From assembly GCA_000934665.2 (NCBI GenBank), contig JYFJ02001575.1, forward strand, positions 1 to 64,000: a DNA stretch of 64,000 nt. Direction: 5' to 3'. Positions 16,901 through 63,476 of the stretch are shown in pieces. The position numbers and the translations under genes were made by a program. Within the stretch, counting starts at the first letter, position 1; each line of letters opens with the position of its first letter. Under the pieces are notes generated by a model, which saw only the letters and a list, made by a program, of their open reading frames with translations, searched no databases and was not told the origin of the DNA. The DNA comes from Catajapyx aquilonaris. Lineage: Eukaryota.

Positions 16901-19900
16901 ATGTATCGCCACAGCCAATAAAATCCAAGAATGTATCGCCGCAGCCAATCAAAACCAAGAATGTATCGCCGCAGCCAATCAAATCCAAAAGTGTATCACC
17001 GCAGCCAATCAAATCCAAAGGACGTTTCATCATCCAATCACACTTCATGAGATAACAGTCAAGGTCATTTTACGAGCTGCTAACAAACAGTTAAGAGCTA
17101 AAAGTGACACTTCAGTTACCAAATTAGTAGAGTCAAATGCAATTATTTTTTAAACAAAAAATATTTAAACAATCAATCGTGCTCTAAATTCATGTAAAGT
17201 ATGTCCATGATGGCGCTTGACGAGTTGTCAGATCCACTTGACGTCATTTAAAGTCGGACCCCCCCTTTCTCCGGTATGAGAACAATAAGCGCTCAAAATT
17301 GCGCTGGAAGCTTTCATGTCGCTAACCCGCCCAATAAGTTTGAAAGGCTGTTGAAAACCCTGGGGAAAAACCCTTGGGGGGGAATCCGGGGTAGTTGTAG
17401 AGAGGAGGGTAAAATCCTGAGTGACAGCAGAACTTGTGCTCTTCCGAATACCGTATATATAGTGTAGAGAGAGAGTCAGGTTCGGAGGCGGGAAAAGGGG
17501 TTTTGCTGGGGAGAGAGGATGGGGTAGTCCATCAGAGAGAGACGAGCCAAGGGCGAATTGTCCCATTCGCCTTCATTAGTGGAAACAAGTGCCACTAATG
17601 GTAATTGAGCGATGCGGGCTAACAATCCCCTATTTAATGGCGGAATCCGAAAGGATGGGGGGACCCAAAGACAATGACCGGAGGGTCGCATCTTCACTGC
17701 CTAATTAGCCTAAAGGAAATGGAATGTTGTGTTACATTGTGCTCCGGTTTTAACCCGAGTTCTTTCCAGGTTCTAAATTTAGGTTTGGCGTTATGAAAGG
17801 GGCGCGATTATTATTACATGGTAGGGTTGGGCTTGCTAATTGCTATTGCCACCATTTAAGCATACCCTGCGACTTCCTCTCTATATTTTCTGATGGTTTT
17901 CACGAAGTACAAGTGAGTGAAGTAGACGGTCATTTCCTAGAGGGCATGAACACGCAAAGGGCTTGGAAAATTGATTGCTGAAACGAGAGGAAAGGAACGT
18001 ATGTTATTTACACCAGCTCAACTCCTGATGTATTTTAAATGAGATACGTGCCTAATGACTCAAACTTTTTGTGCCCTGCAGCATGTATGTGTCGTCTAAG
18101 TTATGCAGATGACAGATCATTTCCAGGAGGGATCTGGTTTCGTGCAGAAAAAAAGTTTTTGCACTATTATTTTTTGCGTTCCGTTATATTGTCAAGAGTT
18201 GTGGTTGTATTAACAACTGGCGATTTTCTCAGGGTTTTGCGAGTGTCCTAGATACGTCTTGATGTCAAGTGTCAGCAGCCCCTCGCATGATTCCATAGGC
18301 CTGCACGTGATTATAATTGCAAATTAGCCGCAGTACAATGTGAAAAACCAGCCGACCTATATATATATATATATACCAAAATCCGCAATAAACATGATGA
18401 AAAATTTAAAAAATAAAAGTTGATCTCACATTTGCCGGATTGTTTTGAAAGTTGAAACTATTTATTTTTAATATTAATTTTTGTCCAATCGTGTGTATTA
18501 TGTTGGGATGGTGTTCAATTTAATACCTGGCCCCAATCATCGCACATCACCTTATATCCGCAGCAGGTGAAAGTTGAGTCGTTTAATAGACCACAAAACC
18601 CCCGTGGTATATACGGCGGGTATGGCCAATTTAAACAAGTTTTGGTTGTTTACAAGTTTTTAGCATGATCCCATACACAGTGTATACAAAAACCCTAGCC
18701 CATAAAGCGTTGATTCCCGGAGTGACGAACGGTTTTCATTCCGTGGTCCGAACCGAGTGGGTAATTAGAGGCCAAGTCCACACTGAGGCCGCCTTCAGTC
18801 TGTGGAACCTCCCCGATAATGAACAATTCAAAATTCAAATGATGCATTTACTAGATAACGCAGGGGGTGTATGAATATTAAAAGTTGGGTAATTATGCGA
18901 GCTTAGGGAACTTTTATGACGCTTTGAGCTTTTTCACGAGTTTATGGAAATCCCCATTATAAGCTGTTAAACTCGGTGGGTCCCTCCCCCTGCTCTCGCA
19001 ATACCTGCTGCTGCTACTGTATATGGGAGGGGAAAAGCGAGGCCTCTCCCATGGCATTTTATGCGTGTCTATTACGCGGGGTAATTAGTTCCCATGAAAA
19101 TGCACTCACACCGAAAAGTGGTGGGGAGGTTGTGGGGGATGTATGGGTTCAAACCCGACTCTTTCCGTCCAAAAATTATTTACCCTTGGCCGGCCGTCCA
19201 TGTGACGTATTATGTATCTCGTGGCCGTCCTATTAATTTCAACTGATGGACTGCAGCTCGCGTTGAACGATATTCTCGGAGGAATATAGATAATATCCCA
19301 TAAATATCGAGAATATCCCATAAATATCGATAATATCGAATGTGTATCGATAATATCAAATTAATATCGATAATACAAAATGCGTATCGAATGAATATCG
19401 ATAATATGAAATGCATAATGAATGAATATCGATAATATCAAATTAATATCGAATGAATATCGAATAAATATCGATAATACAAAATGAATATCGATAATAC
19501 AAAATGAATATCGAATGAATATCGATAATACAAAATGAATATCGAATGAATATCAATAATACAAAATGAATATCGAATGAATATCAATAATACAAAATGA
19601 ATATCGAATGAATATCGATAATATTGCATGAATGTTGATAGTTTCCCGTGTATATCGAATGAATATCGATAATATTGCATGAATGTTGATAGTTTCCCGT
19701 GAATATCGAATGAATATCGATAATATTGCATGAATGTTGATAGTTTCCCGTGAATATCGAATGAATATCGAATTAATATCATAAATATTGAGAATATAGA
19801 ATATTTTGATGCTATAGAATTATTATTGAAGATATAATATATCGAGAGTATCGATGGTAAAGGCGATTCTAGCCTCCGTGATGTATCGATATTCGTGGGT

Positions 19901-28900: not shown

Positions 28901-31900
28901 ATAATGGCTGGGAAATTAAACAAAAATATTTCTGTCCTTACAGGTGCCTCACCCCGAGATCCGTTTACTTCTATGAATTTCCGCCATCAGGTAAGTAGCC
29001 TACTACAAAAATTATGAGGGTAGTAATAGTCAATATTTTTTTGAATTAATGTAGGCTGTAAAATTATATAAGCAATCTCCTCAATGATTTATATTGGCTC
29101 CAATGGGTTCAAATATTGAACATTGCTTTACAGACAAACAAAGGTAACCACAATTCGGGAATTTGGCCACTACTTTTCCATGATATTCTAATATTGGAGT
29201 TGAGCTCTTTCAAACAAAAAAAAACTGAGTCGGAAGATAAAAAGAGAAGTTTTCTTTCAAGTCGAGTGCTTTGGACAATTTGAGATTCATGCGGTGGACA
29301 CACAAGAAAAATGTTTCTCTTCCATTTTCGATTCAGAATGGAACGGATCTCAGCAGACAACCAAGAAGAAACTCGGGTTGGGGAAGCTGCTGAAAGGCCT
29401 TAAGGTACACCGGAAGGAAAAAGGCTCTCCCCGACACTCCTCCAAGAGCAAAGACGCCTCGGATCAGAGGGTAAGTCTCCTCCAGTCATCGTCATCTGTT
29501 ATTCATGTGAGGGATTGTCCGACCCTGCAACACCCCACCCAAAAAAAGTGGAGGAAAAGAATATCTTGGACCCCCTCTTTATTGGTGTTGGCGTGAAGGG
29601 TTAGGGCTCCAACTTTGAAAATGGAAAGACTCTTTATTGATTCATACTGTACAGCTTCTAGCAAGAAATGTAATGTAAAATACCTCCGACATTTTACTGT
29701 ATACAGAAGATAAAACAGTGCAGTGCAAGTGAATGTAAATGACTAAGAGTGTACCCTAAGGAGAGCCGCAACCGCCGAAAAAAAGTCTGCGAAAATTCTC
29801 ATACATGAATATAAAGATTAGGCAGCTGCTCTGTTAGAAGGTGATGAAAAAAAGCAGTGACAATGAGCGATGGGCGTGGTCCCCTTTTTTTGTTATATTC
29901 GCGGCAAGGCTCCCGTCAGCAGATGTTCCAGCATTGGCATTGCAATTTTCTGGTCGTCATGCCTTACAAAACACTTGGCTGAAGCTGTAAAAAAGAAAAC
30001 TAGCAGCTTGCAAATTGCTAAAAAACTTTGGCAATCAAGGAGCCTTCAAGTGCGACAATGCAGTGTCATACAGTTACAAAATTCTTGACCCGTCTGAAGC
30101 TGGTGGGAAACCCACGAGTTGTTGAATATCTCGAGTATAAATCCAATTTGCATCCCATAGCAATGGCAATGCATTCCCAACACGCCTCTGGAACCACCAT
30201 CTGGCCCAAGTGCTCTCCTGCAACTGTATTAAGGATTGGCAAATGGAGCAGCCAGCACTTGGGACAGATATCCCGAATGGAACCCGCGTCTCCTCCTTAA
30301 CACCACGTTTTTTTTTTCTTTCTTCTCTTCCTATATATATTCCAACTGTGGTGTGCCTCCTTCAGAGTTCTGGAAGCGATTCGGGACCCATTCTGGGCAC
30401 TCCCGTGGGAGGACTGCCATCCTTAGGGACTCCGGAGAGCGACAGACTCAGGCTACTTCCAATGGAGAGGACCAACGAAAGACTCCAGGAGACCATTCAG
30501 AGGGTAAGGAAAACCACCTGTAATCAATTTGCATATTTTTTTACACACCCAAATATTTGCAGTTAAAGGCAAGAGAGGTGCAGCTTCGGAAGGAAAAATT
30601 CGCGAGAGAACACGAAGAGGTGAGTTTGAATCGATTTCATTTGCATGCACTGTGAACGTGTTGAAAAGAAGAGCTAATCGTGCGGGGCTTGTGTGTGTGG
30701 ATAGGAACATTTTGGCTTTGCTCCCAGAACCAACCTCAGTACAAAACTGGTTTTTTTGGGGGGCTTCAATTTTTTTTAATACAGGGAACCAATCGGCTCT
30801 GTGGAATGAGATTAAATCTCAGTGGATTTTTCGGGGATCGATCTTGGGGAAGTCCACATTGCCCGCTGGCTGTTTCCTCATTAGTTGAATTATTCAACAG
30901 TCGGACATAAAGCATTCATAGTGCCAGCCGCCATTTTTCGGACTGCTCGGTTACTAGTTTGAGGTAGTTTTTTTTCTCTCTCTTTAAAACGAATCCGCGG
31001 TTTATGACTCGCATTTTTCGATAGAAGAATTCTGTGACCGATCACAGTCCATCAGCTTCTGTACGTATACACTGCACACACATCATATTTTGCACTCAAT
31101 TCGCGACCCTGCCATCCTAACGATCAAAACCCTCGCCGCCCCCCAATATTCGCAATATGTCGCCAATAATATCCCTTCCAATCCATACTCCCCCATTGCG
31201 GCACCTGTTGCACCCAATTAACGCCCCCCCCCCCGTTCCCCCAATAATAATCCTCTCATCACTAAACACTACATATGATAGCTCAAGCTGCTAAGCTGCT
31301 TATCATCAAGTTGCTTATTAAGCAGCTTAATTGGCAGCAAGTGTAGCTGTTGCCAAACATTAGATTACTACATTAAGTTACTTAACTGCTTTGAACAGGC
31401 AGCTACCGTAGCTTATGTCGATATTAGTTACAGAATTAATCATTTTTAAAGAACAAAAGAAACTTACATAAACTATATACACCACGTATACACTCTAGGA
31501 GTGTCCGGAACAATTTAACATTTGAACTACAGAAATAGCAGGTTAGCCTAGCTGTTTAAATAAACAGCTATTGTAACTGTTGAGAAGCGTTATTGTAACT
31601 GCTTAAACAAGTAGTTATTTATAGCTACTTGCAAATCAGTTGCAACATCGTATAACAGGATGCTATTTCAACTGCTTAAGAAGCAGCTATACTGCAGCTG
31701 TTGTCGATATTCGTTACATTAGGTTTGCCTAACTGCTTAAATAACCAGTTATTGTAACTGTTGGTAAATATGGTTAACTGCTTAAACAAGTGGCGGTTTG
31801 ACAATATTGGTTATGTTATGATGCTATTTAACTGCTTGGCAAATCAGCTAGTGCAGCTTGTTATTAATATTAGTTATATTATGTTTGCTTAACTGCTTAA

Positions 31901-34900
31901 ATAAGCGGCTACTTTAGCTGTTGGCAAATATTAGGTTATTTAACTGGTTAAGCTATAGCTATTAGTTACTAATATTTATCAACAGCTACAATAGCTGCTT
32001 GTTTAAGCAGGCAAATAACCTAATATTTATCAACAGCTACAATAGCTGCTTGTTTAAGCAGGCAAATAACCTAATATTTATCAACAGCTAACAATAGCTG
32101 CTTGTTTAAGCAGGCAAATAACCTGATATTTATCAACAGCTACAATAGCTGCTTGTTTAAGCAGGCATATAACCTAATATTTGTCAACAGCTAGAGAAGC
32201 TGCTTATTAAGCTGTTAAGCAAACAATATAACTAATATTGATAACCAACGACAGTAGCTGCATGCCAAGCAGTTAAATAGCATCATATTATAAGTAATAT
32301 TAAGTTATGCTATTTAACTGCAGCTACTGTAGTTTGTTATCAATATTAGTTATATTGTTTGCTTAACAGCTTAATAAGCAGTTTCTCGAGCTGTTTACAA
32401 ATATTAGGTTATTTACCTGCTTAAACAAGCAGCATTTTAAAAAAAAATCCGCACCATCGTTGAGTTAGAAGGAGGAATGTATTGCATGCAGTACATTCCT
32501 CTAACTCAACAATTGTTCGGAATTTTGAAAAATGTGTAGGATGGTTTCTTGTTCCCAGTGCGAAATTATGCCTAGACACAAAATCTGCAGCGTGTAGTTT
32601 GAATAGCACTCTTTCTGTGTCTGATGAGGTTAATATGCTGTTCAACCGCTTAAACAAGCAGCTACTGTAAGCTGTTGGAAAACATGAGGTTATTGAACAG
32701 GTTAAAACCCTGGTGGCGGGCATTTTGAAGGCCGGTTCTCTCAATGTCAATGGCAAGGTTGGGTCGCTCCCATTGGAAAGGGGGGAGAGGCCGAAGCCGA
32801 ACTCGTGGCCTCTCCTTCTATATCTGGGGAGCATTTTACCTTGAGCGGGCTCTTCCTTCCGCCTGCTCAGCCTTCAGACGCGCGACTCTGATCTATATTT
32901 GCCGTGAGGAGGCCTTGGCACCGGCCGGCCCCATTTTTTCAAGGCTGATGGGCCCCCTGTTTGACCCTGATGCCTGGGCTCGGTTCAATGCCGGGACCCC
33001 AATACCCACATTGGAGAGGGGCCGCCCCCGTTTCCCCTAAACGATGCTCCACATTTACAAGGGAGGTGCGCGCACACCCATGGACACCACACACACACAC
33101 ACACAGGTCGAGGGGAGGAAAGGGAAAAAGTGGACTGCCCCACACACACTGTAGCAGGTGTCGGATGGCCTCGGTTGGACCACGGTCAAGGATACCTGCT
33201 CCTATAGGTAGCCTCATATGATCATAATAAGATATGCAGCACGTGACATGTTAATTAGTATAATAAATGTGAGAATTTTACTATTTTTTTGAAGGGCGTG
33301 AGATAATTGTAGTTTTTTTTTCCCTGGAAGTTATTCAATGCTGCACAGGTGCAAGATGCATGGAGTGAAAGTTTGGGTTAGATAATCACTGGCCTGCTCT
33401 GCGTGGTACAGGGTGGCCTAGAGATAATACTGTGCATGCACTGGTAATTGCAAGACGTAATCCAATGCAGGTTCTCTCTAGAAATGGGATTTGTATGCTC
33501 TGCAAAATATTTGTTTTATGCGAAATATTTTAACTGCATTTTTTTTTGTAAGTACAGGGTGTGTCAGGGATTTCCTAAGCAATTATTTTTAAAATGTAAC
33601 TCTCGAAGTTGTCAAAAATAATGGCTAATGTTAGTGGTTGGCTTTCATACTTTTAAATCTAGCTTGCAAGTATGTCTATTTATGGTATTGCCATCCGGAC
33701 TTGGAAGTTCCTAGCCGTATGTTTCTGGCGTGGCTATTTTTTCCTAGTCCTTTTTTATTTTTATTTTTGGTAGCAAGAATTCGAGGCTTATATGGAAGGA
33801 AAAAATAGGTCCAAAGTTCTTCGCTGAAGTTTAGAGCGCGTAAATCTTTCTCCTTGAACCACATGGGGAGCATCTGTGAACTGCCCTATTTGGTGAAGGC
33901 TATTTTAAACTTTATTATTATTATCTATTTTGGAGGTGTTTCGAGTGCGTATTTTAAAATATAGTCCATATTTTGCGTCTTAAATTACTGCACGTGTATT
34001 TTACAATTTTCTGGCTGTACTAAAATCCATTATTAATTATTATAGTAGATTTATTGATGTACATTAACTAATACGGCTGTAGTAATCAGTCATTTTGTAT
34101 AATTTATTATATGCCATTCCTGCAGCTCCCATTTAAACCACATGTGTCGGTGTAACAACTAACAAGGGCTAACATTACCCATATTGGTCCGTATAACTAT
34201 AACTTTAATTATTATCATTAGTATATTGGACGAATTTAGGTCATGCAAAACATTCAGTCCAGCCAAACAACACAAGGTGTTCCAAAAGTCAGATCCGATA
34301 GTGCACGGTGCTATTATAAAGGTCTTTATAGCTGCCATTAAAAATTGCTGCTGAAGCCGTCGGAAATTGATAGCGGATAACATCGTTAGTTGTCGATAGC
34401 TGCTGATACCGCAAGTTACTTCTGCCAATGCAAGTCTCGTCTGCTGTCACTTAACAAATAGCGGTAACTCGATACCCCCCGGATCATTATGTCTCACCGT
34501 CAGACACCTCCACTATCGACAAACCCGTTAGTGAAAAGCACGGCTGGAATAGTGCACTTAACCAGGCGTATACACAGTACCAAACAGGTCAGTGTACAAC
34601 GTCGCGAATTTATGGCAAAAAATAGCATAAACAAAAAAATTAGTTGCCGTTATTACAATTAGGAATTTAATTAATTAACCGTGTCATTAATTAATAATAC
34701 TAATGACGGTGATAATTATTGTGTTGTTATTATCCATTAAGTATAAAGCCTCCCCCTTCAAATAATTATTGCCTGTACCGGTGTAGACTGTATTATGATA
34801 ACAAGTCTTGTCAGTTAGTGGTCCCGCCCCCCTCCAGTGTTGTCGCCCACTTCCTCAAAACAAGATCAGGCAGCGATTTAGATTGCATTTCGTCAAGCTC

Positions 34901-35263: not shown

Positions 35264-35336
<73 letters not shown>

Positions 35337-35602: not shown

Positions 35603-35692
<90 letters not shown>

Positions 35693-44600: not shown

Positions 44601-47600
44601 TTGCTCAGCTTTCCATTTAGCAAACATGTGTTATCTCGGTGCACTCCTTGCAAGTACACTGAGTACAATTAATGTGTACAGTACGATACAGATTTTTTTT
44701 TAATCCGATATTTTTAGGACAGTATTTTTATGATGCAAAATTCTGAATTTTGCAATATTTTCACGTGTTGCTTTTAATCCAAAATTAATCCAAAAATATT
44801 CGAGTTCAATTTGCACAGTTTTTAACTCAATATAAATGTCATTTTTTTGAGCACCTATCCTCATTCAGTTTTTAAGGAGTACTGCTCATTTTTTACGAGT
44901 TTTGTTCGAACTTTGGAGTTAAAACTTTAATCTCAGTTATATTTTAGAGTGTTGGTACAGTACTAACCCCACATATTATCTGAAGGAAAGTTAGGAAACG
45001 TAAAAGGTATCTCCAAATTGGACTTGGCCATTTAGAAGCTCAGGAAAAACATTCCGTCCATTTTTTCCAAAGCACCGGTCGTGTTTACTTGGCAAAGGTT
45101 CCTCCGATTTCGATAACAACCGAGCCTTTCCTCGAACTAACCATTGTGCTTTGTCTTCAGTATATATTTTTTTAAACTTGAGGTCAACCGTATAGAGTCG
45201 CCACATAAACTTAGCCCTTGATATCGCAACTTTATCCTTGACATTGCACAATCACGGCGTAGTTTCCAGCCAGTAAAACAAATATGCGCTCTTGATAATT
45301 GAGCAAATAGGAAGGGCTCCCAGTTTCAATTCAAGTTCCGGTAGTGCAGGAGCCACTTGTAATTATCAGGAAGCAGAATTGTTTTAAAGAGTAAAAAAAT
45401 AATTAAGGCTGGTGCGCTAATGAGTGCTTGAGAACGTGCCTGGCTGCGCTGTGAAGGTCTGCGCGTGTGTGTATTCTTGGCTCAGTTGATGTCGAGACCA
45501 GAGATGAAGCTAGACTTCTTCCAGGTAGGCACTGAAATAGTTATACTGTAATTAAATTATGGGACTGACGAGTCATTAATTGTGACAATTTACAAACGAA
45601 AAGTACAGCTTTCGGACTTTACCCGCAATCAGCAGCATGTAAAGTACGGTACACTCCGTAGTCTGAAAGTAGATTAGGTAGCTCGGACATGCGAACATAT
45701 GGACAAACTTTCTGCTTGATATGTGATGGGCCAAGTTTCAGGACTCCCAGTAGTCTGAAAGTGGGTTAGGTAGCTCGGACATGCAGACAAACTTTCTGCA
45801 TAATTATGTAAGCCTTTCAAAAAATGTAGTTTTCGTACTTTTCCCTCAATCAGCAGCACTTTTAAAGCCATCAGTGTGCCAAGTTTCAAATTCTCAGTAG
45901 TCTGAAAGTGGGTTAGATAGCCCGGACATACAAACTTTCTGTTTTATTACTATGTAATTATGTAAATGCTAAAAAAAAGTGCACTTTTCGGACTTTTCCT
46001 TGAATCAGCAGCTCTTAAGCCATCAGTGTGCCAAGTTTCACTCAGTAGTCTGAAAGTGGGTTAGGTAGCCCTGACATACGAACATACGGACAAACTTTAG
46101 TCTGCTTTATGTATAGATATGTGCATCCAGCCTGTTTTTAATGAGTACGGTATGTGGGTCAGTACATTGGAAGCCGATATACCCAATAGAGTCCAGTAAT
46201 GAACCTCTATTAGTGGCCCTTTAGTGGCTATCTTTAAACTTGGGCCATGTGTTAGTCAGACACACACTTGGCTGGTGATTCATACCAGCTGGTATGCCCC
46301 CTTTTGGTTAATCAGCTTTCTTTATTTATCTTCAGCGTCTGGACCATGGTCGAGGACCGGCCACTTTGGTTGGTCGAATGCGTGGTTTGAGACACGACAT
46401 GCAGAAGAGGATCTCGAGGCTTCGACCCAGCCGAAGCTCTGAGGTGGCCGTTGTGTCGTCGGCTGGTACGGCGACCGGTACGTTCACCGGTACTGCTGCT
46501 GCTGCTGCTGCGACGTCCGTTTCGTCCGGAGAGATCGCCGGAGCATCGGTCATCATCAGCAACGCACCTCAGCCCAACGGTAGCATTCTGATGGGCGAGG
46601 CTTCCGGTGGAGGAGGAGGTCAAGGGTTGGTGATGACCGTCGGAAGCAACCGTAGTTCACTGTCCGGAGAGGAACCGGAGCCCATATACGCCGGACCTTT
46701 CATGGGGAAGGCCAGGGCACTCGTCGACTGCATTCCTAGTCCATACGATCGAGACGCTCTCAGATTCAAGGCGAGTTGGTGGACCAAAATAAAATGATTC
46801 TCTGAGTGTCCCCCCACAGTGGGACAATGGCAACCGGTTGCAATGGAAGTCAGGTTGACATTGACCCATTGTATACATTTGTGTTGACGTTACCTTATGG
46901 CAACTGGTTGCAGATTGGCATGGCAGCCATACCTGGACAAACAAGCAAACAAACTTTACCTTTTGTAATATTGGCAGAGAGATATACGGTAGTTACTGTA
47001 ATTGATACGATTTCATGGCGTTGCAATGGAAATCAGGTTAGCATGGCAACCATACCTGTGGGCAAACAAACAAACTTTGCATTTCATAATAATAGAGATG
47101 GTTTATATGGTAACTAGGTACTGTAATTAAAAGAGATTTAGGATTAAATGTGATGAGACTTGGGTTGTAATGGTAACCAGTTGTCACGTCCATGGCAACT
47201 GGTTGCCATGAAAATCATATTGTAAACCAGCTGCCGTGGAAACTATTACCTGGACGAACAAACTTTGCCTTTCATAATAATTTAGAGATATGGTATAGTA
47301 GACCTACGGTAATGTAGGAGATTTAAGATTACATGGGATTAAACTGTTGGGTCGCAATGGTAACCAGTTATTGCCATGGAAATCAGGTTGGCATTGCAAC
47401 CAATGGCAACCCATTGCCATAAAAAACCGTACCTGGACAAACAAACTTTACTTTTATAATACACGTATAGTGCTGTAGTTAGAGATATAAGATTAAATGG
47501 GATTAAAGTACTGTACTGCTGATTATCTAGTTCAGTTATAAGCTGTGTGAATTTTTAAAAGTAGATTTTCAGCTTTAAAATTGTGCTTATTATCTACAGA

Positions 47601-48857
47601 AAGGAGATGTCATCGATGTGATAACCATGAACCCGAGTGGGCTGTGGAAGGGGAGGATTCACAACAGGGTGGGCCACTTCAAGTTCATCAACGTGGAGGT
47701 CCTGCCTGACAAGCCAAAGCACAAGAATAGCAAGATGTATGGAAGGAAGAAGAGCTCCAAGAGGGGAAGGCCAAAGAGCGTGGAGGAACTTCTGCAGAGG
47801 ATCAGCCTGGAGGAGCACATCTCTGTCTTCGTCCTCAACGGCTACGAGGATCTGGAGCTGTTCAAGGACATAGAGGAGGCCGACTTGGACTACCTCGGGA
47901 TCACCAATCCAGAGCACAGAGCTAAGATCCTCACCGCAGTAGAACTTCTGCACGATTACGACTGTAAGTGTTGTCAGTACATGTCGACAACGATACCCGC
48001 TGTCCCAAACTTGCTGGTTGCTATTTCAAATGACCTTGTATAAGCACTAATTATTAGTAACAACTTGATCGGAATTGACTGTTTGTTGTAGCCAGACATA
48101 AAAATAATTGCCAATTTCCTCCATAGCTTCTGACACTCCCGAGACTGATGACCCTGCATCTTCCACTGATGGGTCAGCAAGTCAAGGAGAGTACAAGTCA
48201 ACCGTGGAGGTGTTCCCCCGGCACTTTCCACGAGACTCTGGATTTTACGCTTCCGGAGACCACTACGGCAGCGGAAGAGGAGTCCTCCGCTACCACTACC
48301 GCCATCCTGATGACTCCAACGTGGGTCTGCCGCTGCCACCAGCAACGGATAGCTGCTTTGAGCTCAGCAACAACCTTGATGTCAGCTGCGCTGGAGCTGG
48401 CAAAGATGTCGAGGATGGTGCCCTGCTGGACCCAGAAGAGGACGATGACACCCGCAATGATGCCACAAACGTGAAGTCATCCACTGTGATTGTCACCAGT
48501 GGTCGTATCCGTGGGGGTAGGGGTAGGACCAGAATTGGTGCTGAGGTGGAAGAGGAGGAGGAGGAGGAAGAGGAAGATGAGTGTCGCTTCAACATACCTG
48601 TTCTGGGTCGAGGTGTGATGGCACCCACTAAGATGATGGAAGAGGAAGGCAGGGGTAAGGGAGGGGAAGGTGCGGAAGGAAGGACTGGGAGTGAGAAGTC
48701 GAGCGATTCCGGCATCAGCACTAGTTCTAGATCACCCCCGTCATTGCCCAGGAACCACCACAAGAGCAGCCACCACCACGTCTTGGAGGTGGATGACACC
48801 CAGTCGCAGCAGCCCAAGCACCTCCCTTCCGGTGATAGAAATAATGCCTTCCAGTAG
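1971..48857 (+). CDS. SKIP: SH3 and SAM domain adaptor protein, SKIP (Shal K+ channel interacting protein)/SASH1-SAMSN1 family; 5'-partial, 13 exons in window
   Basis: Phase-consistent exons: 1971-2098 (PSSCLSDKEEDEIYGFAGYG), 28944-28990 (CLTPRSVYFYEFPP), 29337-29470, 30366-30503, 30563-30619 (LKAREVQLRKEKFAREHEE), 39087-39171 (FLREIRQGLLQ), 39271-39424 (HWYDEPPYESDPEDFL), 39650-40060 (His/Pro-rich), 40132-40462, 43010-43114, 46336-46770, 47600-47963, 48127-48857. Total 3120 nt = 1039 aa + stop. SH3: GKARALVDCIPSPYDRDALRFK|KGDVIDVITMNPSGLWKG. SAM: RPKSVEELLQRISLEEHISVFVLNGYEDLELFKDIEEADLDYLGI. The first exon begins at an acceptor, so the 5' end lies upstream. Confidence 0.88.
6462..6811. mobile_element. 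Fold-back (almost fully palindromic) non-autonomous DNA transposon
   Basis: Arms of ~150-170 bp are reverse complements (CAGGGAGCATATA...CCGCCATCTTTGAT / ATCAAAGATGGCGG...TATATGCTCCCTG) around a ~30-bp spacer; ATACGG repeated on both flanks (TSD-like). Confidence 0.8.
13884..13978. repeat. Short inverted-repeat element with an internal 45-bp tandem duplication
   Basis: TGAATAGTCAGGA ... TCCTGACTATTCA termini; unit TTGAATAGTCAGGATGACTTGCATAGTCAGAATGACTTTCCTGAC x2. Confidence 0.75.
16828..17040. repeat. 30-bp minisatellite carrying CCAAT boxes
   Basis: CAGCCAATCAAATCCAAGAATGTATCGCCG-type units at 16882, 16912, 16942, 16972 and 17002, plus degenerate flanking copies. Confidence 0.9.
19270..19830. 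repeat. AT-rich satellite built on TATCGATA/AATATCGAATG subunits
   Basis: Repeated GAATATCGATAATACAAAAT and GAATATCGAAT, plus three longer units containing ATTGCATGAATGTTGATAGTTTCCCGTG. Confidence 0.9.
22725..23085. repeat. Degenerate AT-rich tandem repeat (TATTATTTTCACAA-type)
   Basis: Recurrent TATTATTTT(C/G)(AC/TC)A units of ~20 bp. Confidence 0.8.
31285..32700. repeat. Satellite (~51-bp unit) present in both orientations
   Basis: AACTGCTTAAACAAGCAGCTA-type units forward at ~31290-31950 and ~32300-32430; reverse-complement 51-bp units (AATATTTATCAACAGCTACAATAGCTGCTTGTTTAAGCAGGCAAATAACCT x~4) at 31971-32190. Confidence 0.85.
35264..35332. repeat. (AAT)23 microsatellite
   Basis: Read directly from the sequence. 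Confidence 0.97.
35605..35691. repeat. (ATT)29 microsatellite
   Basis: Read directly from the sequence. Confidence 0.97.
37959..38004. mobile_element. Minimal Tc1/mariner-type MITE (46 bp)
   Basis: TA|CAGGGTGAGTCAGATTT ... AAATCTGATTCACCCTG, a 17-bp TIR with 1 mismatch. Other solo TACAGGGTG termini occur at ~165, 3585, 13353, 24785, 33407 and 33553. Confidence 0.65.
42650..43114 (+). CDS. Candidate alternative first coding exon of the SKIP/SASH gene (extends internal exon 43010-43114 by 120 codons)
   Basis: ATG in good context (GGCACCATGA) with a stop-free frame continuous with the internal exon. Shares donor CAG|gtaaga at 43114. The internal acceptor tttccag|AGT at 43010 is phase 0. Confidence 0.55.
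45486..45524 (+). CDS. Candidate 39-nt cassette or alternative first exon of the SKIP/SASH gene (LMSRPEMKLDFFQ)
   Basis: ttcttggctcag|TTGATG...TTCCAG|gtaggc; phase 0 at both ends, matching the flanking exons; two in-frame ATGs; Inr-like TCAGTT overlaps the 5' edge. Confidence 0.4.
45590..46118 (+). mobile_element. Tandemly reiterated interspersed repeat, DINE-1/Helentron-associated-like
   Basis: Four GTAGTCTGAAAGT(G/A)G(G/A)TTAG units, GCCAAGTTTCA motifs, an ACAT/GACA microsatellite and a GCTTTATGTATAGAT end. The family assignment is from recalled similarity only. Confidence 0.45.
46826..47505. repeat. Degenerate ~175-bp tandem repeat (about 4 copies) rich in GTTGCCATGGCAAC-like palindromes
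   Basis: Recurrent TACCTGGACAAACAAACTTT(A/G)C(C/A)TTT and GGTTGC..ATGG(C/T/A)AAC blocks fill the GC-AG intron. Confidence 0.75.
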
Positions 48858-49962: not shown

Positions 49963-51099
49963 CTAGTTCATGATGCAAGACTCGTATGTTGGAACCATGT
50001 ACTTGATGTTGATGAACGCATCTGGGCCCCCATGACGCTCCATCAGCTCCAGCGTCTCCTGGATGAGGTCTCCGAGGTTCTCCCTCTTCTGCTGGCTATA
50101 GTCAATCGTGTCACCCACATTGGCTGAAAAGGAAGGAGACGATCCAGTTGGAAATGCTGCTCATACCTTGAAGAAGATTGAAAGGTGGCATGAGCCACTG
50201 GCTCATTAATTACATCATAAGAGCCACTTGCAATTGCTTATAACCAGTCTTATCAAAGGGCATCATGCCACTTTCACTCTCCTGCAAGGCTTGTTTTTAA
50301 CTTATTAAAATGTGAGGATGGGCTGGGAAGGACTAGGACACTTGTTTCATGTGAAGGTTTGGCGTACTTGCCCCCCAGACCCAAGCTCACTCACGGTCTA
50401 TTTGCTGCTTACAGTTCTTGGTTTTGAACAGGTTGAGTACAGGCATTAGCTGCCTGTAGTAAGGCACCAGGGACTCTCCGATCAACTCGGCTGACAGGAT
50501 GAGGTGCTGCATCACCTTCAGGGTGGTGCACATCACCCTTGGGTTCCTGGTGTTCAGGGCTCCTGATCAATAAGAACAGTTGAAAAAATAGTTGGGTACA
50601 CTTTTTAAAAAATATATAATGTTTAACATACTCTTGATAGGCATGATGAGCTGAGGAACTACAGGTAGGATGCGGTTCCCACCGTGCTCCAGCATGTCAT
50701 GTATTCCCTGGTGAGCGAAGAACTCATAGGGATGAACCAGCTCACAAAGACCATCAAAAAACAGAGGCAGGTAGTGATGGTAATCCAACTTTTCAATCTC
50801 CACCTGACAACATAACAATGCAAAAGTAGTGTACACAACTTAACATATAAACATGACAGCCGCCTTACCCTCCAAGCTATCTTGTGTCCTCTGAAGTCAT
50901 GTTCCAAACCAATGGGTATGTCTCCTCTGAGATAAAATTTCCTGAAGAGCGTCGGAGGAGTGTGTCTAGGTTTAGTGGAGTGGGCCGATGGTGGAGCAAA
51001 CACCTTTGTGCATCTTTGCCTCGATTGGACCGTAAAGCCTGGCACTTTCCTGAGGTGTGCGCACTTGGCTGTCTCCGCCTGGGCTAGAGCGGACGGCAT
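49963..51099 (-). CDS. PACRG: Parkin co-regulated gene protein (axonemal inner-junction protein), 237 aa, 4 exons
   Basis: Exons 51099-50869, 50803-50632, 50562-50413, 50123-49963; all GT-AG and phase-consistent (714 nt). Motifs [83 protein letters not shown]. In-frame TAG upstream of the ATG. Confidence 0.96.
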
Positions 51100-51209
51100 G
51101 GCTGTAAGATCCGGCTTTTTTGGGGGGCAGCCCCTCTTCTTCAGAACCTAGCTCCACTCATGCCCTTCCGATCATTCCTCTTGTTGGGAAAAAAATAGAC
51201 ACACAAAAT

Positions 51210-51223
51210 GTCGCCCAGGTAAC
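51210..51223. promoter_or_regulatory. RFX X-box in the PACRG/UFL1 intergenic promoter
   Basis: GTCGCCCAGGTAAC fits GTNRCC-NN-RGYAAC and lies ~110 bp upstream of the ATG of a ciliary gene. Confidence 0.7.
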
Positions 51224-51458
51224 CCAAACAAACTGATCGATTTTCAACAAGGGGTATTCAAGTTGACCGCGCACTCAAGGTTACCAGATCAAGCTGACAC
51301 TACCACAACACTGTTCCATGAAGTAATTTTAATACACTACAATATGTACCAATAAAAAATTAATAAATTATAGTTATTGTTTGAAATTAGTTTTAATATA
51401 ATTTAATGGAATGTTTTACATCTGGCAACTTTGGAATGTAAACGTCACCGATTCCAAG

Positions 51459-54400
51459 ATGGCGCGTGCGGATTGGGATGAAGTGAAGAGACTTGCGGCC
51501 GATTTTCGTCGCGCACAGCTCACCTCGTCGTCCCAAAAGTATGGATATGTCCATGGCCGGATTCGGCACAGTCTGGCCGTTCGAACGATATAAAATATTA
51601 GAGGGGTTTAAAGCGTACAGGGGCACACAGGGGCCAACATCTGTTTGGAACATATGTGAAAAAAAGGTGGAATTGTTCTGATTTTTGGAACACATTGTAA
51701 TTAATTTTGATTAATTAATTAATATGTTTGGACATTGCTAGGGTCGCATTTGGGACAATGTGGCCGTCCGAACGACATAAAATTTTAAGGGGTTTAAAGC
51801 ACCGGATGGGCAAAAACATCTTGTTTGGAATGTGGGGGAAAAAAAGAACACAATTTGTAATTAGTGTTCTAATTAGGAGAACACTGTAATTTGACAAATT
51901 GTTGTAATTTAACACAATGTTTTTTATTCCAGGTTGTCTGAACGCAATTGTATCGAGATTGTGAGCAAGTTGGTGGAACTTAAGCTGATAGATGTGACGT
52001 TCACGACTGACGGCAAAGAGTACGTGACGGTCCAGCATGTCAACAAGGAAATACGGGATGAGCTGTACGTTAATCACGGAAGGGTCAACTTGGTTGACCT
52101 CTCGCAATCGCTCAAGCTGGACCTGACCCAGATTGAGCTGCGGACGGCTGAACTGATCAAGTCGGATAAGAGCAATTTGCATCTGGTTTTAGGCCAGCTG
52201 ATTGAACGATCCTATTTGGATCGTATGTGCGAGGAGATTAATGAGTTGTTGGAGACTAAAGGCCAGGTGCATATCGGGGAGTTGGCCAAGTCGTATGACC
52301 TGCCTGGAGATTTCCTGCACCGGCAGCTTGAAAAGCGGCTTGGGAGTATACTGAAAGGTCAATGTCATCCGTCGGATCCGAGGCTGATTTTCAACCAGGC
52401 TTTCATCGGAAAGTGGCAAGCTTGGATGCAAGGAGTGATGTCTGCCATCACCCGACCGACTTCGCTCGCACCGATTTTGTCCAGATGCGCACTTCCAGAG
52501 GCATTGTTTTTCAGTAAGTGTAAGTAATTACGATGTGTGGGATTTTACTTAAACTGTCTCTTCCCTCCAGGCGTTATAGACAATCTGATCCGGAGCAAGC
52601 GAATAGCAGGGACTGTCAGTGGGGGCCAAACAGCGAGCCAAGCGACGTTCATCCCTGCATTGCATTCACGCTCGCAGAATGAATGGGTCGAGAGCTTTTA
52701 CCATCAGAACGGATACCTCGAGTATGACAACCTCGTGCGCTTAGGGATTACGGACCCAAAGGGGTTTGTGAAGCGCAAGTACCCGTCAGAACCTCTTGCG
52801 TTCCTTCCATCTGGATGCGTTGGACGGGTGTTGACAGAGCAGATTGATGAAGCTGTTGGCGAGGCCTTGGCTTCGGGATCATGGCTGGATGTTATGCCAA
52901 TCCTTCCGACTGTGTTTGGAACTGGGGATGCTAACCAGTTACTCCAGGACGCATTGAAGAGGAGGAAGGAGAAGTGCGGACAGATGGCATCAATATTGTG
53001 CGAGACCATGGTTGCAAGCGACTTCCTGTTGGAGCAGCTTCGGAAGGGCTTCAACGATCAGATGCAGACAAAGGCGGAAAAGGACGTGACATCAGGAGCA
53101 TACATCAAGGTGAGTAGATTTGATTTGATGGATGCCTGTTAATAAGTTGTTTCCATTTTTGTCAATAGGCTCAGATGGATGCAAAGTCCAAATCGGGAAA
53201 GTACGACGCGGAGGATTCAAAGCGTGATAAGAAAGAGGAGCGTCGGAAGAAGGCGGTCGGTGGGAAAGGAGGTGGCGGAACTCAGGGTAGGGAAACGAAG
53301 ACGAAATCCACCAAGAAGCGTGCAGCTCGCCGCCAGGTTGAATCGTCCGACTCGGAGCCGGAGGAGTCCACAGCGGCCAAACCAGGAGAGCTCGACTTCC
53401 TCTCGTTAGAAGAGATACAAACCCAGCTGTCAAAGCAAGACCTACTTAAAGATGCGCCGGAAGAACTTGTCGAGGCCGTCGCCACGCAGTTTTGGCCTCG
53501 TTTGCAGAAGGAATACCAACAGGCAGTCCGGTCGTCATTTGAAGCGTCTGTTGCGAACGCAAGTCAGACCAGACGCAAGACTCACGTGGGCCTGCAGGAC
53601 AAGATCGCAGGTCTGGTTGGCAATTTGAAGCAGTTTGAGAAAGGTTTGGGCCAGTTCAAGAGTGGCGAGGTGCAAGGGGCGTTGGCGAAACATCTTCTCA
53701 GGACGCTGTGTACCGATGTGGTCAATGACATTTTCGCGTACCTGGCGCAAGAAAATATGCTGCAGGCCGGTGATAAGGAGATGACCGCAGAGGTAAGGAG
53801 TTGCATTCTGTAATTGTTTATAATGAATAAATTGCCACAATTTGTTTTCCAGTCGAGAAACAAGCTGCTGACAAAGTTACCTGAGGAAATGCACGAGCAC
53901 CTACGCAAACTGAACAAGAGCTTATCAGGGAAGGGCGTAGACGAGTTCCTAGCCGCTTTGGAAACTGTTCTGGGGTCTTCAGTGTGCGACATGGTTGTGA
54001 AAAAGCCGGACAAGAAGAAGGAAAAGTGAGATCTACATCTTACTCTATTCAAAGACCGTTCACTAATTTGCTTTTACTTGTTCTTGATTAGGCAAGTGGT
54101 GTCAGCGCATCGCCAGGCTTTGATTGAGCAGCTGACAGTGTGCCTTGATCCGGCCGTGACTCTTCACCTGTCCGTCATAATATTGTTCCAGACCTTAACC
54201 CAATGTATGCTGCATGCCTCGGGGAAGTTTGTCCCACAGATACTTCTATACCTGCAACCACACCTGGAATCCGAAGCTTACGACACGCTTCACACATATC
54301 AAGGTGAGTGTCGTAGCAGCTAACTACTGCATCTCCCGCAAATTATCGCTATTGTGCCATACAGGTCTGGTGATGAAGCAGCTGACCATAACAGACGAGG

Positions 54401-59048: not shown

Positions 59049-63476
<4,428 letters not shown>

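What the first reader, a model, noticed from the sequence alone, without database searches (positions are those of the whole stretch)
51539..51890. Tandem pair of covarying three-hairpin RNA elements fills UFL1 intron 1, the first starting exactly at the 5' splice site
Seen: intron 1 is 394 nt, while the other five UFL1 introns are 57-66 nt. It consists of two diverged copies offset by 187 nt (from 51539 and 51726). Stem 1 is GGCCGGATT-CGGCAC-AGTCTGGCC versus GGTCGCATT-TGGGAC-AATGTGGCC. This shows a true compensatory change (G51560-C51573 to C51747-G51760) plus C-G to U-G and U-G to U-A changes; the other differences are in the loop. Stem 2 (GTTTAAAGCG/TGTTTGGAAC vs GTTTAAAGCA/TGTTTGGAAT) and stem 3 (TGTTCT/GGAACA vs TGTTCT/AGAACA) also differ only in pairing-neutral ways. 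The many G-U pairs imply the + strand RNA folds. An ANANNA box follows hairpin 1 in both copies, and copy 2 has ACA 16 nt after stem 2. In copy 1 the donor GTATGGAT can itself pair with GTTCGAAC. Known: H/ACA snoRNAs are intronic in housekeeping genes and duplicate in cis. Inference: these are either atypical H/ACA-like RNAs or an undescribed intronic RNA or splicing-control element. Copy 1 lacks ACA at the equivalent position and the third hairpin is not canonical for H/ACA.
Basis: partly seen in the sequence, partly recalled or inferred. Interest (0 to 1): 0.8.

Follow-up and report, generated by a model that had tools for sequence, protein, structure and literature searches.

The report
Duplicated RNA hairpin in UFL1 intron
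The unusually long first intron of an invertebrate UFL1 gene is made of two diverged tandem copies of one ~190-base unit that both keep the same small sense-strand RNA hairpin, which may be a functional RNA structure but does not look like a snoRNA and so far lacks expression or cross-species support.

Summary
The sequence facts hold. UFL1 intron 1 is 394 nt (51539-51932), against 57-66 nt for the other five introns. It consists of two tandem units (51539-51725 and 51726-51932), about 73% identical over their first ~130 nt.

One structure stands out. A 9-bp, 6-nt-loop hairpin (51555-51578 / 51742-51765) is fully paired in both units despite four stem substitutions, including one G-C to C-G swap. 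It works only on the sense strand. It is unlikely under neutral mutation (about 1-3% of simulated trials). None of 509 control windows from seven other tandem repeats in the same window matched it.

The rest is weaker. Stem 2 is no better than chance. Stem 3 is kept with one neutral change. The pairing of the splice donor in copy 1 is not predicted to form.

The H/ACA reading fails:
- there is no two-sided pocket;
- the H-box spacing is wrong;
- there is no conserved ACA;
- Rfam gives no match.

No dispersed copies were found, but no whole genome, orthologous intron or RNA data could be reached.

My best reading, at about 0.4, is a sense-strand pre-mRNA hairpin module under selection, most likely acting in cis. 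A non-functional decaying duplication is nearly as likely, at about 0.35. Interest is moderate to low.

The parts
51459..51538 (+). UFL1 exon 1 coding part (ATG at 51459; ends in phase 2)
   Evidence: tblastn of UFL1 homologues P0003 and P0004; sequence; gene model
51539..51932 (+). UFL1 intron 1, 394 nt, GTATGG...TTATTCCAG; the other introns are 57-66 nt
51539..51725 (+). Repeat unit 1 (187 nt); its conserved core is 51539-51666
   Evidence: 149.9 bits to model R1
51726..51932 (+). Repeat unit 2 (207 nt; about 189 nt without the local 18-nt duplication); its conserved core is 51726-51846
   Evidence: 142.3 bits
51555..51578 (+). Hairpin 1, copy 1: 9-bp stem and 6-nt loop (CGGCAC)
   Evidence: 9 of 9 pairs; pair probability 0.85-0.96
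51742..51765 (+). Hairpin 1, copy 2: 9-bp stem and 6-nt loop (TGGGAC); four stem substitutions relative to copy 1, all keeping the pairing, one two-sided
   Evidence: pair probability 0.40-0.89
51726..51773 (+). Extended hairpin 1 of copy 2: an outer 8-bp stem (51726-51733 with 51766-51773) encloses an 8-nt loop on the 5' side only and the inner hairpin
   Evidence: 17 of 17 pairs; outer-stem probability 0.17-0.97 depending on the allowed pairing span
51539..51586 (+). Same stretch in copy 1: the outer stem would include the 5' splice site (7 of 8 pairs, A.A mismatch at intron position +3, three G-U) but is not predicted to form
   Evidence: probability 0.00
51587..51602 (+). A-rich stretch after hairpin 1 of copy 1; ANANNA at 51588. 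The counterpart in copy 2 is 51774-51788, with ANANNA at 51775
51603..51614 (+). Block GGGGTTTAAAGC, identical in copy 2 at 51789-51800
51637..51650 (+). Block ACATCT-GTTTGGAA; copy 2 has it at 51816-51830 with one extra T. A similar ACATCT...TTTGGAATGT lies in the 5' leader at 51418-51439
   Evidence: (D2, D10)
51658..51666 (+). GAAAAAAAG run that ends the conserved core; copy 2 has it at 51838-51846
   Evidence: D2
51674..51692 (+). Hairpin 3, copy 1: TGTTCT / GGAACA, 6 bp
   Evidence: probability 0.08-0.54
51863..51885 (+). Hairpin 3, copy 2: 8 bp (AGTGTTCT / AGAACACT)
   Evidence: (I13); probability 0.97-0.98
51617..51636 (+). Local 10-nt tandem duplication inside copy 1 (ACAGGGGCAC / ACAGGGGCCA). 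It accounts for most of the length difference in the 'variable' segment
   Evidence: read from the sequence
51698..51723 (.). (TAAT)n low-complexity end of unit 1
   Evidence: TRF, period 4, 7 copies
51885..51921 (.). 18-nt tandem duplication near the 3' end of unit 2
   Evidence: TRF; the repeat finder D7
51909..51932 (+). Likely branch site (TTAAC at 51909-51913), T-run and the 3' splice site AG
   Evidence: read from the sequence; the branch site is inferred, not tested

Best explanation
Intron 1 of UFL1 is a tandem duplication of almost a whole ancestral intron of about 190 nt. The duplication is old: the units are about 27% diverged.

Both units keep a GC-rich 9-bp hairpin with a 6-nt loop, which can only form in the sense-strand transcript. 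Both also keep a smaller 6-8-bp hairpin further downstream.

I read hairpin 1 as an RNA structure held by selection in the UFL1 pre-mRNA or the excised intron. It most likely acts in cis, as a structured, probably protein-bound, intronic element that affects splicing or processing of this long, weak-donor intron. It is present in two doses.

Shown: the duplication, the preserved pairing, the strand asymmetry, and the absence of snoRNA features.
Inferred: selection on the pairing.
Guessed: the cis-acting role.
For: - The two units tile the intron from the donor to the acceptor.
- Inner hairpin 1 pairs 9 of 9 in both copies. It has four substitutions in its 18 stem positions: one G-C to C-G, one C-G to U-G and one U-G to U-A. 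Six of the 14 unpaired positions in the 48-nt hairpin region differ.
- Under random mutation, four stem substitutions keep all 9 pairs in 0.9-3.4% of 200,000 trials, for transition shares of 0.33-0.62. The observed share is 6 of 13.
- Consensus fold of alignment columns 1-60: -17.3 kcal/mol, structure conservation index 0.90, z -5.75. None of 300 column shuffles did as well.
- Slid-partner control: 97.8% of cells paired, against 36-48% when the partners are slid.
- Strand: the + strand has 3 helices of >=7 bp kept in both copies; the - strand has 0. The best minus-strand consensus is -2.4 kcal/mol.
- In-window control: none of 509 60-column windows from seven other diverged tandem repeats combines a consensus energy <=-12 with >=4 changed-but-kept pairs.
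- Thermodynamics: pair probability of inner hairpin 1 is 0.85-0.96 in copy 1 and 0.40-0.89 in copy 2, in three settings. The whole intron folds at -102.6 kcal/mol, against -86.4 +/- 4.8 for 100 shuffles.
- Copy 1 has A at intron position +3, as a donor needs, and this A makes the only mismatch of its outer stem. Copy 2, which is free of donor duty, has a perfect 8-bp outer stem.
- No sign of a repeat family. blastn and covariance model R1 find only the two copies in 64 kb; the next best match is 12.3 bits, E 0.44. In each of three DNA runs a single 3269-nt contig bridges exon 1, the intron and exon 2, and no other contig was laid at >=80% likeness. All three runs are from one sample, which may be the source of the window.
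- Weak hint: those contigs show no differing letter across 51470-52031. They do show three third-codon-position differences in exon 2, and two haplotypes with 8 mismatched bases and 6 gapped positions (7 listed substitutions, 3 indel events) in the 170 nt upstream.
- Precedent: a hairpin in Drosophila Adh intron 1 whose disruption lowers splicing and whose compensatory restoration rescues it (passage read in PMC1273634). Structured intronic modules that promote splicing depending on copy number (abstract of PMC7722341).
Against: - There are only two sequences, and they are paralogues. Exactly one pair changes on both sides, and the shuffle control has no power here (229 of 500).
- Two compensated 8-bp helices also occur in 2049 columns of other tandem repeats in this window. 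By the loosest criterion about 0.2 would be expected in this intron by chance.
- Diverged tandem duplications with periods of 148-376 nt and 68-79% identity are common here, with at least five other loci. The duplication itself is therefore ordinary.
- The perfectly conserved blocks (12, 14 and 9 nt) are about what 73% identity gives by chance (my arithmetic: about 0.8 runs of >=12 expected).
- Stem 2 is unsupported. The outer stem of copy 1 is not predicted to form.
- A compaction role gets no specific support. The folded distance from the 5' splice site to the branch site is 29 steps. Shuffles give 24.7 +/- 9.4, and 70-81% of 120 shuffles are as short or shorter.
- There is no evidence on expression, orthologous introns or protein binding.
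Confidence: 0.4

Rival explanations
1. Non-functional relic. An ordinary slippage-type tandem duplication, possibly of an old SINE- or MITE-like insertion that already carried a palindrome, is decaying neutrally. The preserved hairpin is then chance, or a leftover of selection on the element before it landed here.
For: - Tandem duplication is rife in the window. TRF lists 34 rows. At least five other diverged tandem pairs exist, one with nearly the same period and identity: 47066-47461, offset 188, 72.7%.
- Both units carry further local duplications, of 10 and 18 nt.
- Unit 1 ends in an A-run followed by (TAAT)n.
- GTTCGAA after hairpin 1 resembles a Pol III B box (consensus recalled).
- Compensated 8-bp helices occur in two other tandem repeats.
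- Tail homology is marginal: 4.4% of 500 shuffles score as well.
- There is only one two-sided change.
Against: - The neutral simulation gives 0.9-3.4% for the inner stem alone.
- None of 509 control windows matches it.
- G-U pairs place the hairpin on the sense strand only.
- No other copy was found in 64 kb or among the DNA-run contigs at >=80% likeness.
- ARAGORN finds no tRNA-like fold, and Rfam shows no tRNA, 7SL or 5S similarity.
- I saw no terminal inverted repeats or clear target-site duplication when reading the ends.
- The unit ends coincide with the intron ends.
Confidence: 0.35
2. Each unit, or its 48-130-nt core, is released from the spliced intron as a stable small non-coding RNA that acts in trans: an orphan, non-canonical snoRNA-like or other RNP RNA. 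This includes the reader's atypical H/ACA idea.
For: - It is intronic and on the sense strand, inside a housekeeping gene.
- The conserved core is about 128 nt, the size of a small nucleolar RNA.
- A hairpin is followed by an A-rich ANANNA stretch in both copies.
- Both copies have been retained.
- In copy 2 the outer stem closes the hairpin.
Against: - Rfam gives nothing.
- There is no C box, and only one CTGA, which is not conserved.
- There is no two-sided pocket, and ANANNA starts about 10 nt after the upper stem.
- ACA at 51650 in copy 1 is AUG in copy 2. ACA is frequent anyway (18 sites), as is ANANNA (18 of 389 positions).
- The 3' half has no conserved fold (z 0.02).
- The single-stranded blocks are conserved rather than variable, unlike guide segments.
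Confidence: 0.13
3. The conserved blocks are DNA-level regulatory sites: a duplicated promoter-proximal module in the first intron of the head-to-head PACRG/UFL1 pair. The hairpin is incidental.
For: - The intron starts 80 nt after the ATG and lies next to a compact divergent promoter. A ParcG-like ORF lies at 50659-51144 on the minus strand.
- Three of the four TGGAATGT sites in 64 kb lie at 51407, 51432 and 51826. About 3.7 are expected in the whole window. I recall this octamer as a TEAD-type site.
- The block ACATCT...TTTGGAATGT recurs in the 5' leader at 51418-51439 (D10).
- TTTGGAAY occurs four times in 51430-51831.
Against: - It does not explain a two-sided compensatory change, or why G-U pairs are tolerated on one strand only.
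- The TGGAATGT of copy 2 is TGGAACAT in copy 1.
- I noticed the motif cluster after the fact.
- The similarities between the upstream region and the units are marginal (3.6-3.8% of 500 shuffles) and are not colinear.
Confidence: 0.1
4. Copy 1 is a 3'-tailed mirtron: a hairpin whose 5' end is set by the 5' splice site, with the tail trimmed after splicing to give a microRNA.
For: The copy 1 hairpin region begins at the first intron base. [quoted passage not shown]
Against: - The hairpin is only 48 nt, with an 8-nt one-sided loop.
- The outer stem of copy 1 has a predicted probability of 0.00.
- The better hairpin, copy 2, is not at a splice site.
Confidence: 0.02

Closest known systems
Conserved pre-mRNA hairpins in introns held by compensatory (epistatic) selection, e.g. 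Drosophila Adh intron 1 (Chen and Stephan 2003, as summarised in a passage of PMC1273634); yeast intron 'zipper' stems (abstract of PMC2536676)
   Same: A short sense-strand hairpin inside the first intron of a protein-coding gene. Pairing is kept through substitutions, including a double change. The intron is longer than the local norm.
   Different: Here the comparison is between two paralogous copies in one intron, not between species or alleles. No splicing effect has been shown. The predicted fold does not shorten the distance from the 5' splice site to the branch site more than shuffled sequence does.
Box H/ACA snoRNAs
   Same: Intronic and on the sense strand; the core is about 128 nt; a hairpin is followed by an ANANNA-matching A-rich stretch; tandem paralogues occur.
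   Different: No two-sided pseudouridylation pocket; ANANNA lies about 10 nt from the upper stem; no conserved ACA; no supported 3' hairpin; no Rfam match.
nimtRNAs: structured tRNA-derived modules in human introns that enhance splicing (abstract of PMC7722341)
   Same: Compact folded modules within introns whose structure, number and position matter. This would fit a two-copy cis element.
   Different: Those are mitochondrial-tRNA cloverleaves. Here ARAGORN finds no tRNA-like fold, and no function has been tested.
3'-tailed mirtrons (listing: PMC4513878, PMC10853799)
   Same: The hairpin region starts at the first base of the intron.
   Different: It is too short and too asymmetric for a pre-miRNA. 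The donor-containing stem is not predicted to form. The second copy is internal.
Dimeric SINE-like retroposons (Alu-type layout; recalled)
   Same: Two head-to-tail units, an A-run, a low-complexity tail and a B-box-like GTTCGAA.
   Different: No other copy was found. There is no tRNA, 7SL or 5S similarity. The unit ends coincide with the splice sites.

Membership tests
Box H/ACA snoRNA | Hairpin-hinge-hairpin-tail architecture with two supported hairpins | tested here: not met
   The 5' hairpin is supported. The 3' half has a consensus fold of -0.55 kcal/mol, z 0.02, and 34% of 300 shuffles do as well. Pair probability of stem 2 is 0.00-0.25 in copy 1 and 0.00-0.77 in copy 2.
Box H/ACA snoRNA | H box (ANANNA) in the hinge | tested here: met
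   ATATAA at 51588 and ACATAA at 51775. The pattern is weak, though: it matches 18 of 389 intron positions.
Box H/ACA snoRNA | Conserved ACA box directly after the 3' hairpin, 3 nt from the mature end | tested here: not met
   ACA at 51650 in copy 1 aligns with AUG at 51830 in copy 2. The next ACA in copy 2, at 51848, has no counterpart in copy 1. The mature ends are unknown.
Box H/ACA snoRNA | Two-sided internal loop (pseudouridylation pocket) about 14-16 nt upstream of the box (spacing recalled) | tested here: not met
   The internal loop of hairpin 1 is 8 nt on the 5' side and 0 nt on the 3' side. The box starts about 10 nt after the upper stem.
Box H/ACA snoRNA | Guide complementarity to rRNA or snRNA; a stable RNA bound by dyskerin | not testable with these tools
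   No rRNA or snRNA of this animal is held, and no RNA run was listed.
Any Rfam family (snoRNA, snRNA, vault, Y, SRP, tRNA-like and others) | Covariance-model match | tested here: not met
   Over 51200-52200 at E<=10 there were 2 noise hits (12.8 and 9.8 bits). Over the whole window at gathering score there were 0.
Box C/D snoRNA | C box RUGAUGA and D box CUGA brought together by a terminal stem | tested here: not met
   There are 0 RTGATGA and 0 TGATG in the intron. The one CTGA (51678) is CTAA in copy 2.
tRNA-derived SINE or tRNA-like element | tRNA-like fold; many dispersed copies | tested here: not met
   ARAGORN finds 0 genes in 50000-53000. No further copy is found in 64 kb or among DNA-run contigs at >=80% likeness. 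Older copies elsewhere in the genome could not be searched.
3'-tailed mirtron | A pre-miRNA-like hairpin of about 55-70 nt that begins at the 5' splice site | tested here: not met
   The region is 48 nt with an 8-nt one-sided loop. The probability of the donor-containing stem is 0.00.
Conserved cis-acting pre-mRNA hairpin | Pairing preserved through substitutions, on the transcribed strand | tested here: met
   9 of 9 pairs in both copies with 4 substitutions, one of them two-sided. It works on the sense strand only. This rests on two paralogues only.
Conserved cis-acting pre-mRNA hairpin | Conservation in orthologous introns; an effect of stem mutations on splicing | not testable with these tools
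   No genome of this animal or of close relatives is held. The one related locus found (L001, 59% identity) has no intron at this site.

The most novel reading that the evidence does not exclude
The two units encode a so far undescribed kind of intron-derived structured small RNA. Its 5' domain would be a 9-bp hairpin with a YGGSAC loop, followed by the conserved GUYCGAACGAYAUAAAAU stretch. It would be released from UFL1 intron 1 in two paralogous versions and would work in trans, outside the C/D, H/ACA and mirtron classes.
Probability: 0.1. Interest if true: 0.6.

Novelty: new member of a known kind. Interest (0 to 1): 0.3.

Why it matters
If the hairpin is functional, it would be an example from outside the model organisms of a pre-mRNA structure held by compensatory evolution. 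It would come with a built-in natural replicate, because two paralogous copies sit in one intron. That makes a clean test possible: break and restore the stem in either copy and read out splicing of a housekeeping gene.

It would also help explain why one intron stays six times longer than its neighbours. If it is a decaying duplication, the case is a useful caution: a single compensatory pair between two paralogues is weak evidence.

Tried and rejected
- Whole-genome search: no genome is held for this window.
- Expression: no RNA holder was listed by the look-up of sequencing runs. The one run of unknown kind, X5, covers only exon 2 from 52032 onwards. Nothing can be said about expression.
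- Earlier notes of this scan: four look-ups returned nothing.
- Orthologues and dispersed copies in public collections: a 23-nt degenerate pattern of the best-conserved block gave 0 matches in metagenome contigs. A 22-nt version gave 0 in genome contigs. The UFL1 exon-2 protein found one metagenome locus, L001 (59% identity), where the exon 1 and exon 2 sequences are contiguous, so it is no help.
- Literature: UFL1 + snoRNA + intron gave 2 papers, both irrelevant by title and abstract start.
- Coding potential:
  - Both copies are open in the same frame for about 20 codons.
  - A 1-nt indel at 51600-51603 then shifts the frame.
  - Substitutions by codon position are 4/4/7 (my own count).
  - The three intron ORFs scanned, of 64, 56 and 104 aa, match no Pfam family.
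  - I rejected a coding reading.
- Compaction of the intron by folding: the native structural distance from the 5' splice site to the branch site is 29, not shorter than in shuffles. The first attempt returned no ensemble samples because a model setting was missing.
- Kissing of the two hairpin loops: not complementary, by inspection.
- Pairing of the exon 1 end with the copy 2 loop (GTCCCAAA at 51530 with TTTGGGAC at 51749; I7): predicted probability 0.01. The copy 1 loop has no such partner in 50500-53500.
- Other readings checked by eye: Helitron-like 3' hairpin plus CTRR end, terminal inverted repeats, target-site duplications, G-quadruplex, Sm site (AUUUUUG in copy 1 only), heat-shock or STAT-type sites. 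None is conserved in both copies. These motif consensuses are recalled.
- Gene model: the first script timed out and a greedy version mis-set two introns. I used the version scored against homologues.
Full report
WHAT IS THERE

The gene is UFL1. The translated second exon has 1189 hits at E<=0.001, and the listed ones I read carry the UFL1 Pfam domains. The best are only 54-56% identical and come from arthropods and other invertebrates, so no close relative is in the protein collection. tblastn of two homologues places exon 1 at 51459-51538 and the next exon from 51933.

A gene model scored against homologues gives introns of 394, 57, 59, 60, 66 and 61 nt. For intron 3 a 128-nt alternative scored slightly higher. 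The 59-nt version has proper splice signals. The other donors are GTAAGT, GTGAGT, GTAAGG and GTGAGA. Intron 1 has GTATGG.

Upstream, on the other strand, lies an ORF with a ParcG (PACRG) N-terminus. UFL1 therefore sits head to head with another gene, across about 310 nt.

THE REPEAT

Two copies start at 51539 and 51726:
- The repeat finder gives 73 nt at 74% identity, offset 187.
- blastn gives 72.5% over 131 nt, E 4e-13.

The well-aligned core is 51539-51666 against 51726-51846. The tails align only marginally: 4.4% of 500 shuffles score as well.

Unit 2 carries an 18-nt local duplication and unit 1 a 10-nt one (51617-51636, read). Without these the units are about 187 and 189 nt, and together they tile the intron from donor to acceptor.

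This makes the 'starts exactly at the 5' splice site' point less striking. A tolerated 187-nt duplication inside an intron of about 200 nt has to begin within its first few bases.

THE HAIRPINS

Hairpin 1 has a 9-bp inner stem and a 6-nt loop.
- All nine pairs form in both copies, although four of the 18 stem positions differ.
- One change is two-sided (G51560-C51573 to C51747-G51760). Two are one-sided.

In copy 2 an outer 8-bp stem encloses the inner stem, with an 8-nt loop on the 5' side only. In copy 1 the same outer stem would contain the donor. It has an A.A mismatch at intron position +3 and three G-U pairs.

Predicted pair probabilities, in three folding settings:
- Inner stem: 0.85-0.96 in copy 1, 0.40-0.89 in copy 2.
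- Outer stem: 0.00 in copy 1, 0.17-0.97 in copy 2.
- Hairpin 3 (TGTTCT/GGAACA): kept with one G-to-A change. Probability is 0.97-0.98 in copy 2 and 0.08-0.54 in copy 1.

The consensus fold of the stem 2 region is no better than shuffled columns (z 0.02).

IS HAIRPIN 1 MORE THAN CHANCE?

- Column shuffles. Alignment columns 1-60 give -17.3 kcal/mol, structure conservation index 0.90, z -5.75. None of 300 shuffles did as well.
- Neutral mutation, inner stem. Four random substitutions in the inner stem keep all nine pairs in 0.9-3.4% of 200,000 trials, for transition shares of 0.33-0.62. The observed share is 6 of 13.
- Neutral mutation, whole hairpin. For the 17-pair hairpin the figures are 0.01-1.0%, depending on which copy is taken as the ancestor. 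I give this less weight, because the outer stem of copy 1 is not predicted to form.
- Strand. The hairpin works on the sense strand only. The + strand has 3 helices of >=7 bp kept in both copies and the - strand has 0. The best minus-strand consensus is -2.4 kcal/mol.
- Controls from the same window. I ran seven other diverged tandem repeats through the same procedure.
  - None of 509 60-column windows combines a consensus energy <=-12 with >=4 changed-but-kept pairs. The only window as stable as hairpin 1 is between identical sequences.
  - By a looser criterion (>=7 bp kept, at least one two-sided change) the controls yield 2 helices in 2049 columns. About 0.2 would then be expected here by chance.
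- Pair counting. 97.8% of cells are paired, against 36-48% for slid partners. There is only one two-sided change, and the shuffle control has no power with two sequences (229 of 500).

Taken together, I put selection on this pairing at about even odds.

IS IT A REPEAT FAMILY?

- blastn with 7-nt words, and a covariance model of the core run with filters off, find only the two copies in 64 kb. The next best match is 12.3 bits, E 0.44.
- In each of three DNA runs one 3269-nt contig bridges exon 1, the intron and exon 2. Nothing else was laid at >=80% likeness. All three runs are from one sample, which may be the source of the window. The tool also warns that a filter drops some records.
- Older, more diverged copies elsewhere in the genome could not be searched.
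- Pattern scans of the metagenome and prokaryote collections found nothing.
- There is no tRNA-like fold.

KNOWN RNA FAMILIES

Rfam gives only noise in the region at E<=10, and nothing at gathering score in the whole window.

Against H/ACA:
- The internal loop is one-sided.
- ANANNA begins about 10 nt after the upper stem. I recall 14-16 nt between the pocket and the box.
- ACA at 51650 in copy 1 is AUG in copy 2.
- The 3' hairpin is unsupported.
- ANANNA (18 of 389 positions) and ACA (18 sites) are too common to count for much.

Against C/D: there is no C box.

Against a tailed mirtron: the hairpin is short and lopsided, and the donor-containing stem is not predicted to form.

MECHANISM

Precedents exist for sense-strand intron hairpins held by compensatory selection and needed for efficient splicing. 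One is Adh intron 1 (passage in PMC1273634). Others are the yeast intron stems (abstract of PMC2536676). Structured intronic modules can also promote splicing in a copy-number-dependent way (abstract of PMC7722341).

I tested the simplest version of this idea, that folding shortens the path from donor to branch site. The native value of 29 steps is not shorter than shuffled introns give (24.7 +/- 9.4). Between 70% and 81% of 120 shuffles are as short or shorter. Compaction therefore gets no specific support. A protein-binding or kinetic role remains a guess.

The intron as a whole is more stable than shuffles (-102.6 against -86.4 +/- 4.8).

WEAK HINTS

- The DNA-run contigs show no differing letter between 51470 and 52031. 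They do show three third-codon-position differences in exon 2, and two haplotype contigs upstream that differ by 8 mismatched bases and 6 gapped positions (7 listed substitutions, 3 indel events) in 170 nt. With one sample and collapsed contigs this is suggestive at most.
- A DNA-level reading has some support. Three of the four TGGAATGT octamers in the window lie within 51407-51833. An ACATCT...TTTGGAATGT block recurs in the 5' leader. I noticed this after the fact, and it does not explain the compensatory pair.

VERDICT

The snoRNA label is not supported. What remains is one well-behaved sense-strand hairpin, kept in two old paralogous copies that together make up an outlier intron.

My estimates:
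- about 0.4 for a cis-acting RNA structure;
- about 0.35 for a non-functional relic;
- about 0.13 for a trans-acting small RNA;
- about 0.1 for DNA-level regulation;
- about 0.02 for a tailed mirtron.

Orthologous introns, a genome-wide copy count, RNA data and stem-swap mutants would settle it. None of these could be reached here.

Noticed in passing
window 50659-51144 (-) and 51145-51458: An ORF with a ParcG (Parkin co-regulated protein) N-terminal match lies head to head with UFL1, about 310 nt from its ATG. The two genes probably share a bidirectional promoter.
   Followed up: partly
window 51407-51414, 51432-51439, 51826-51833: Three of the four TGGAATGT octamers in the 64-kb window, all on the + strand, fall within 427 nt spanning the UFL1 leader and intron 1. 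About 3.7 are expected in the whole window. I recall this octamer as a TEAD-type binding site. The cluster was noticed after the fact.
   Followed up: partly
window 51418-51439: The 5' leader has ACATCT, then 6 nt, then TTTGGAATGT. This resembles the conserved block of both intron units (51637-51650 and 51816-51833). TTGGAAT at 51431 can also pair with ATTCCAA at 51451, just before the ATG, but the predicted probability is 0.00.
   Followed up: partly
window 47066-47461; also 45599-46110, 31540-32424, 19276-19830, 59389-59717: Other diverged tandem duplications are present, with offsets of 76-486 nt in the rows printed and 68-83% identity. One has almost the same period and identity as the intron pair (offset 188, 72.7%). 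It contains a strong palindrome in one copy. No sequence similarity to the intron unit was found.
   Followed up: partly
window 51300-51469: The DNA-run contigs resolve two haplotypes here that differ by 8 mismatched bases and 6 gapped positions (7 listed substitutions, 3 indel events) in 170 nt. The adjacent 51470-52031 shows no difference.
   Followed up: no
window 51530-51537 and 51749-51756: The last eight bases before the final exon base (GTCCCAAA) are perfectly complementary to the loop region of hairpin 1 in copy 2 (TTTGGGAC). Copy 1 has no such match. The predicted probability is 0.01.
   Followed up: partly
L001 2927-3189: This metagenome UFL1 relative (59% identity) has no intron at the intron 1 site. 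It carries an in-frame TAG at about 3058-3060, inside otherwise conserved coding sequence. This could be an error, a pseudogene, a small intron or a variant genetic code.
   Followed up: no
window 61445-63343 (+) and 47579-48040 (+): ORFs with MBT repeats and a SLED domain (an Scm-like Polycomb protein) lie downstream of UFL1. A SAM plus SH3 domain ORF lies upstream.
   Followed up: no
window 35264-35333 and 35604-35692: Perfect (AAT)23 and (TAT)30 microsatellites lie 270 nt apart. They form a long inverted repeat with each other.
   Followed up: no
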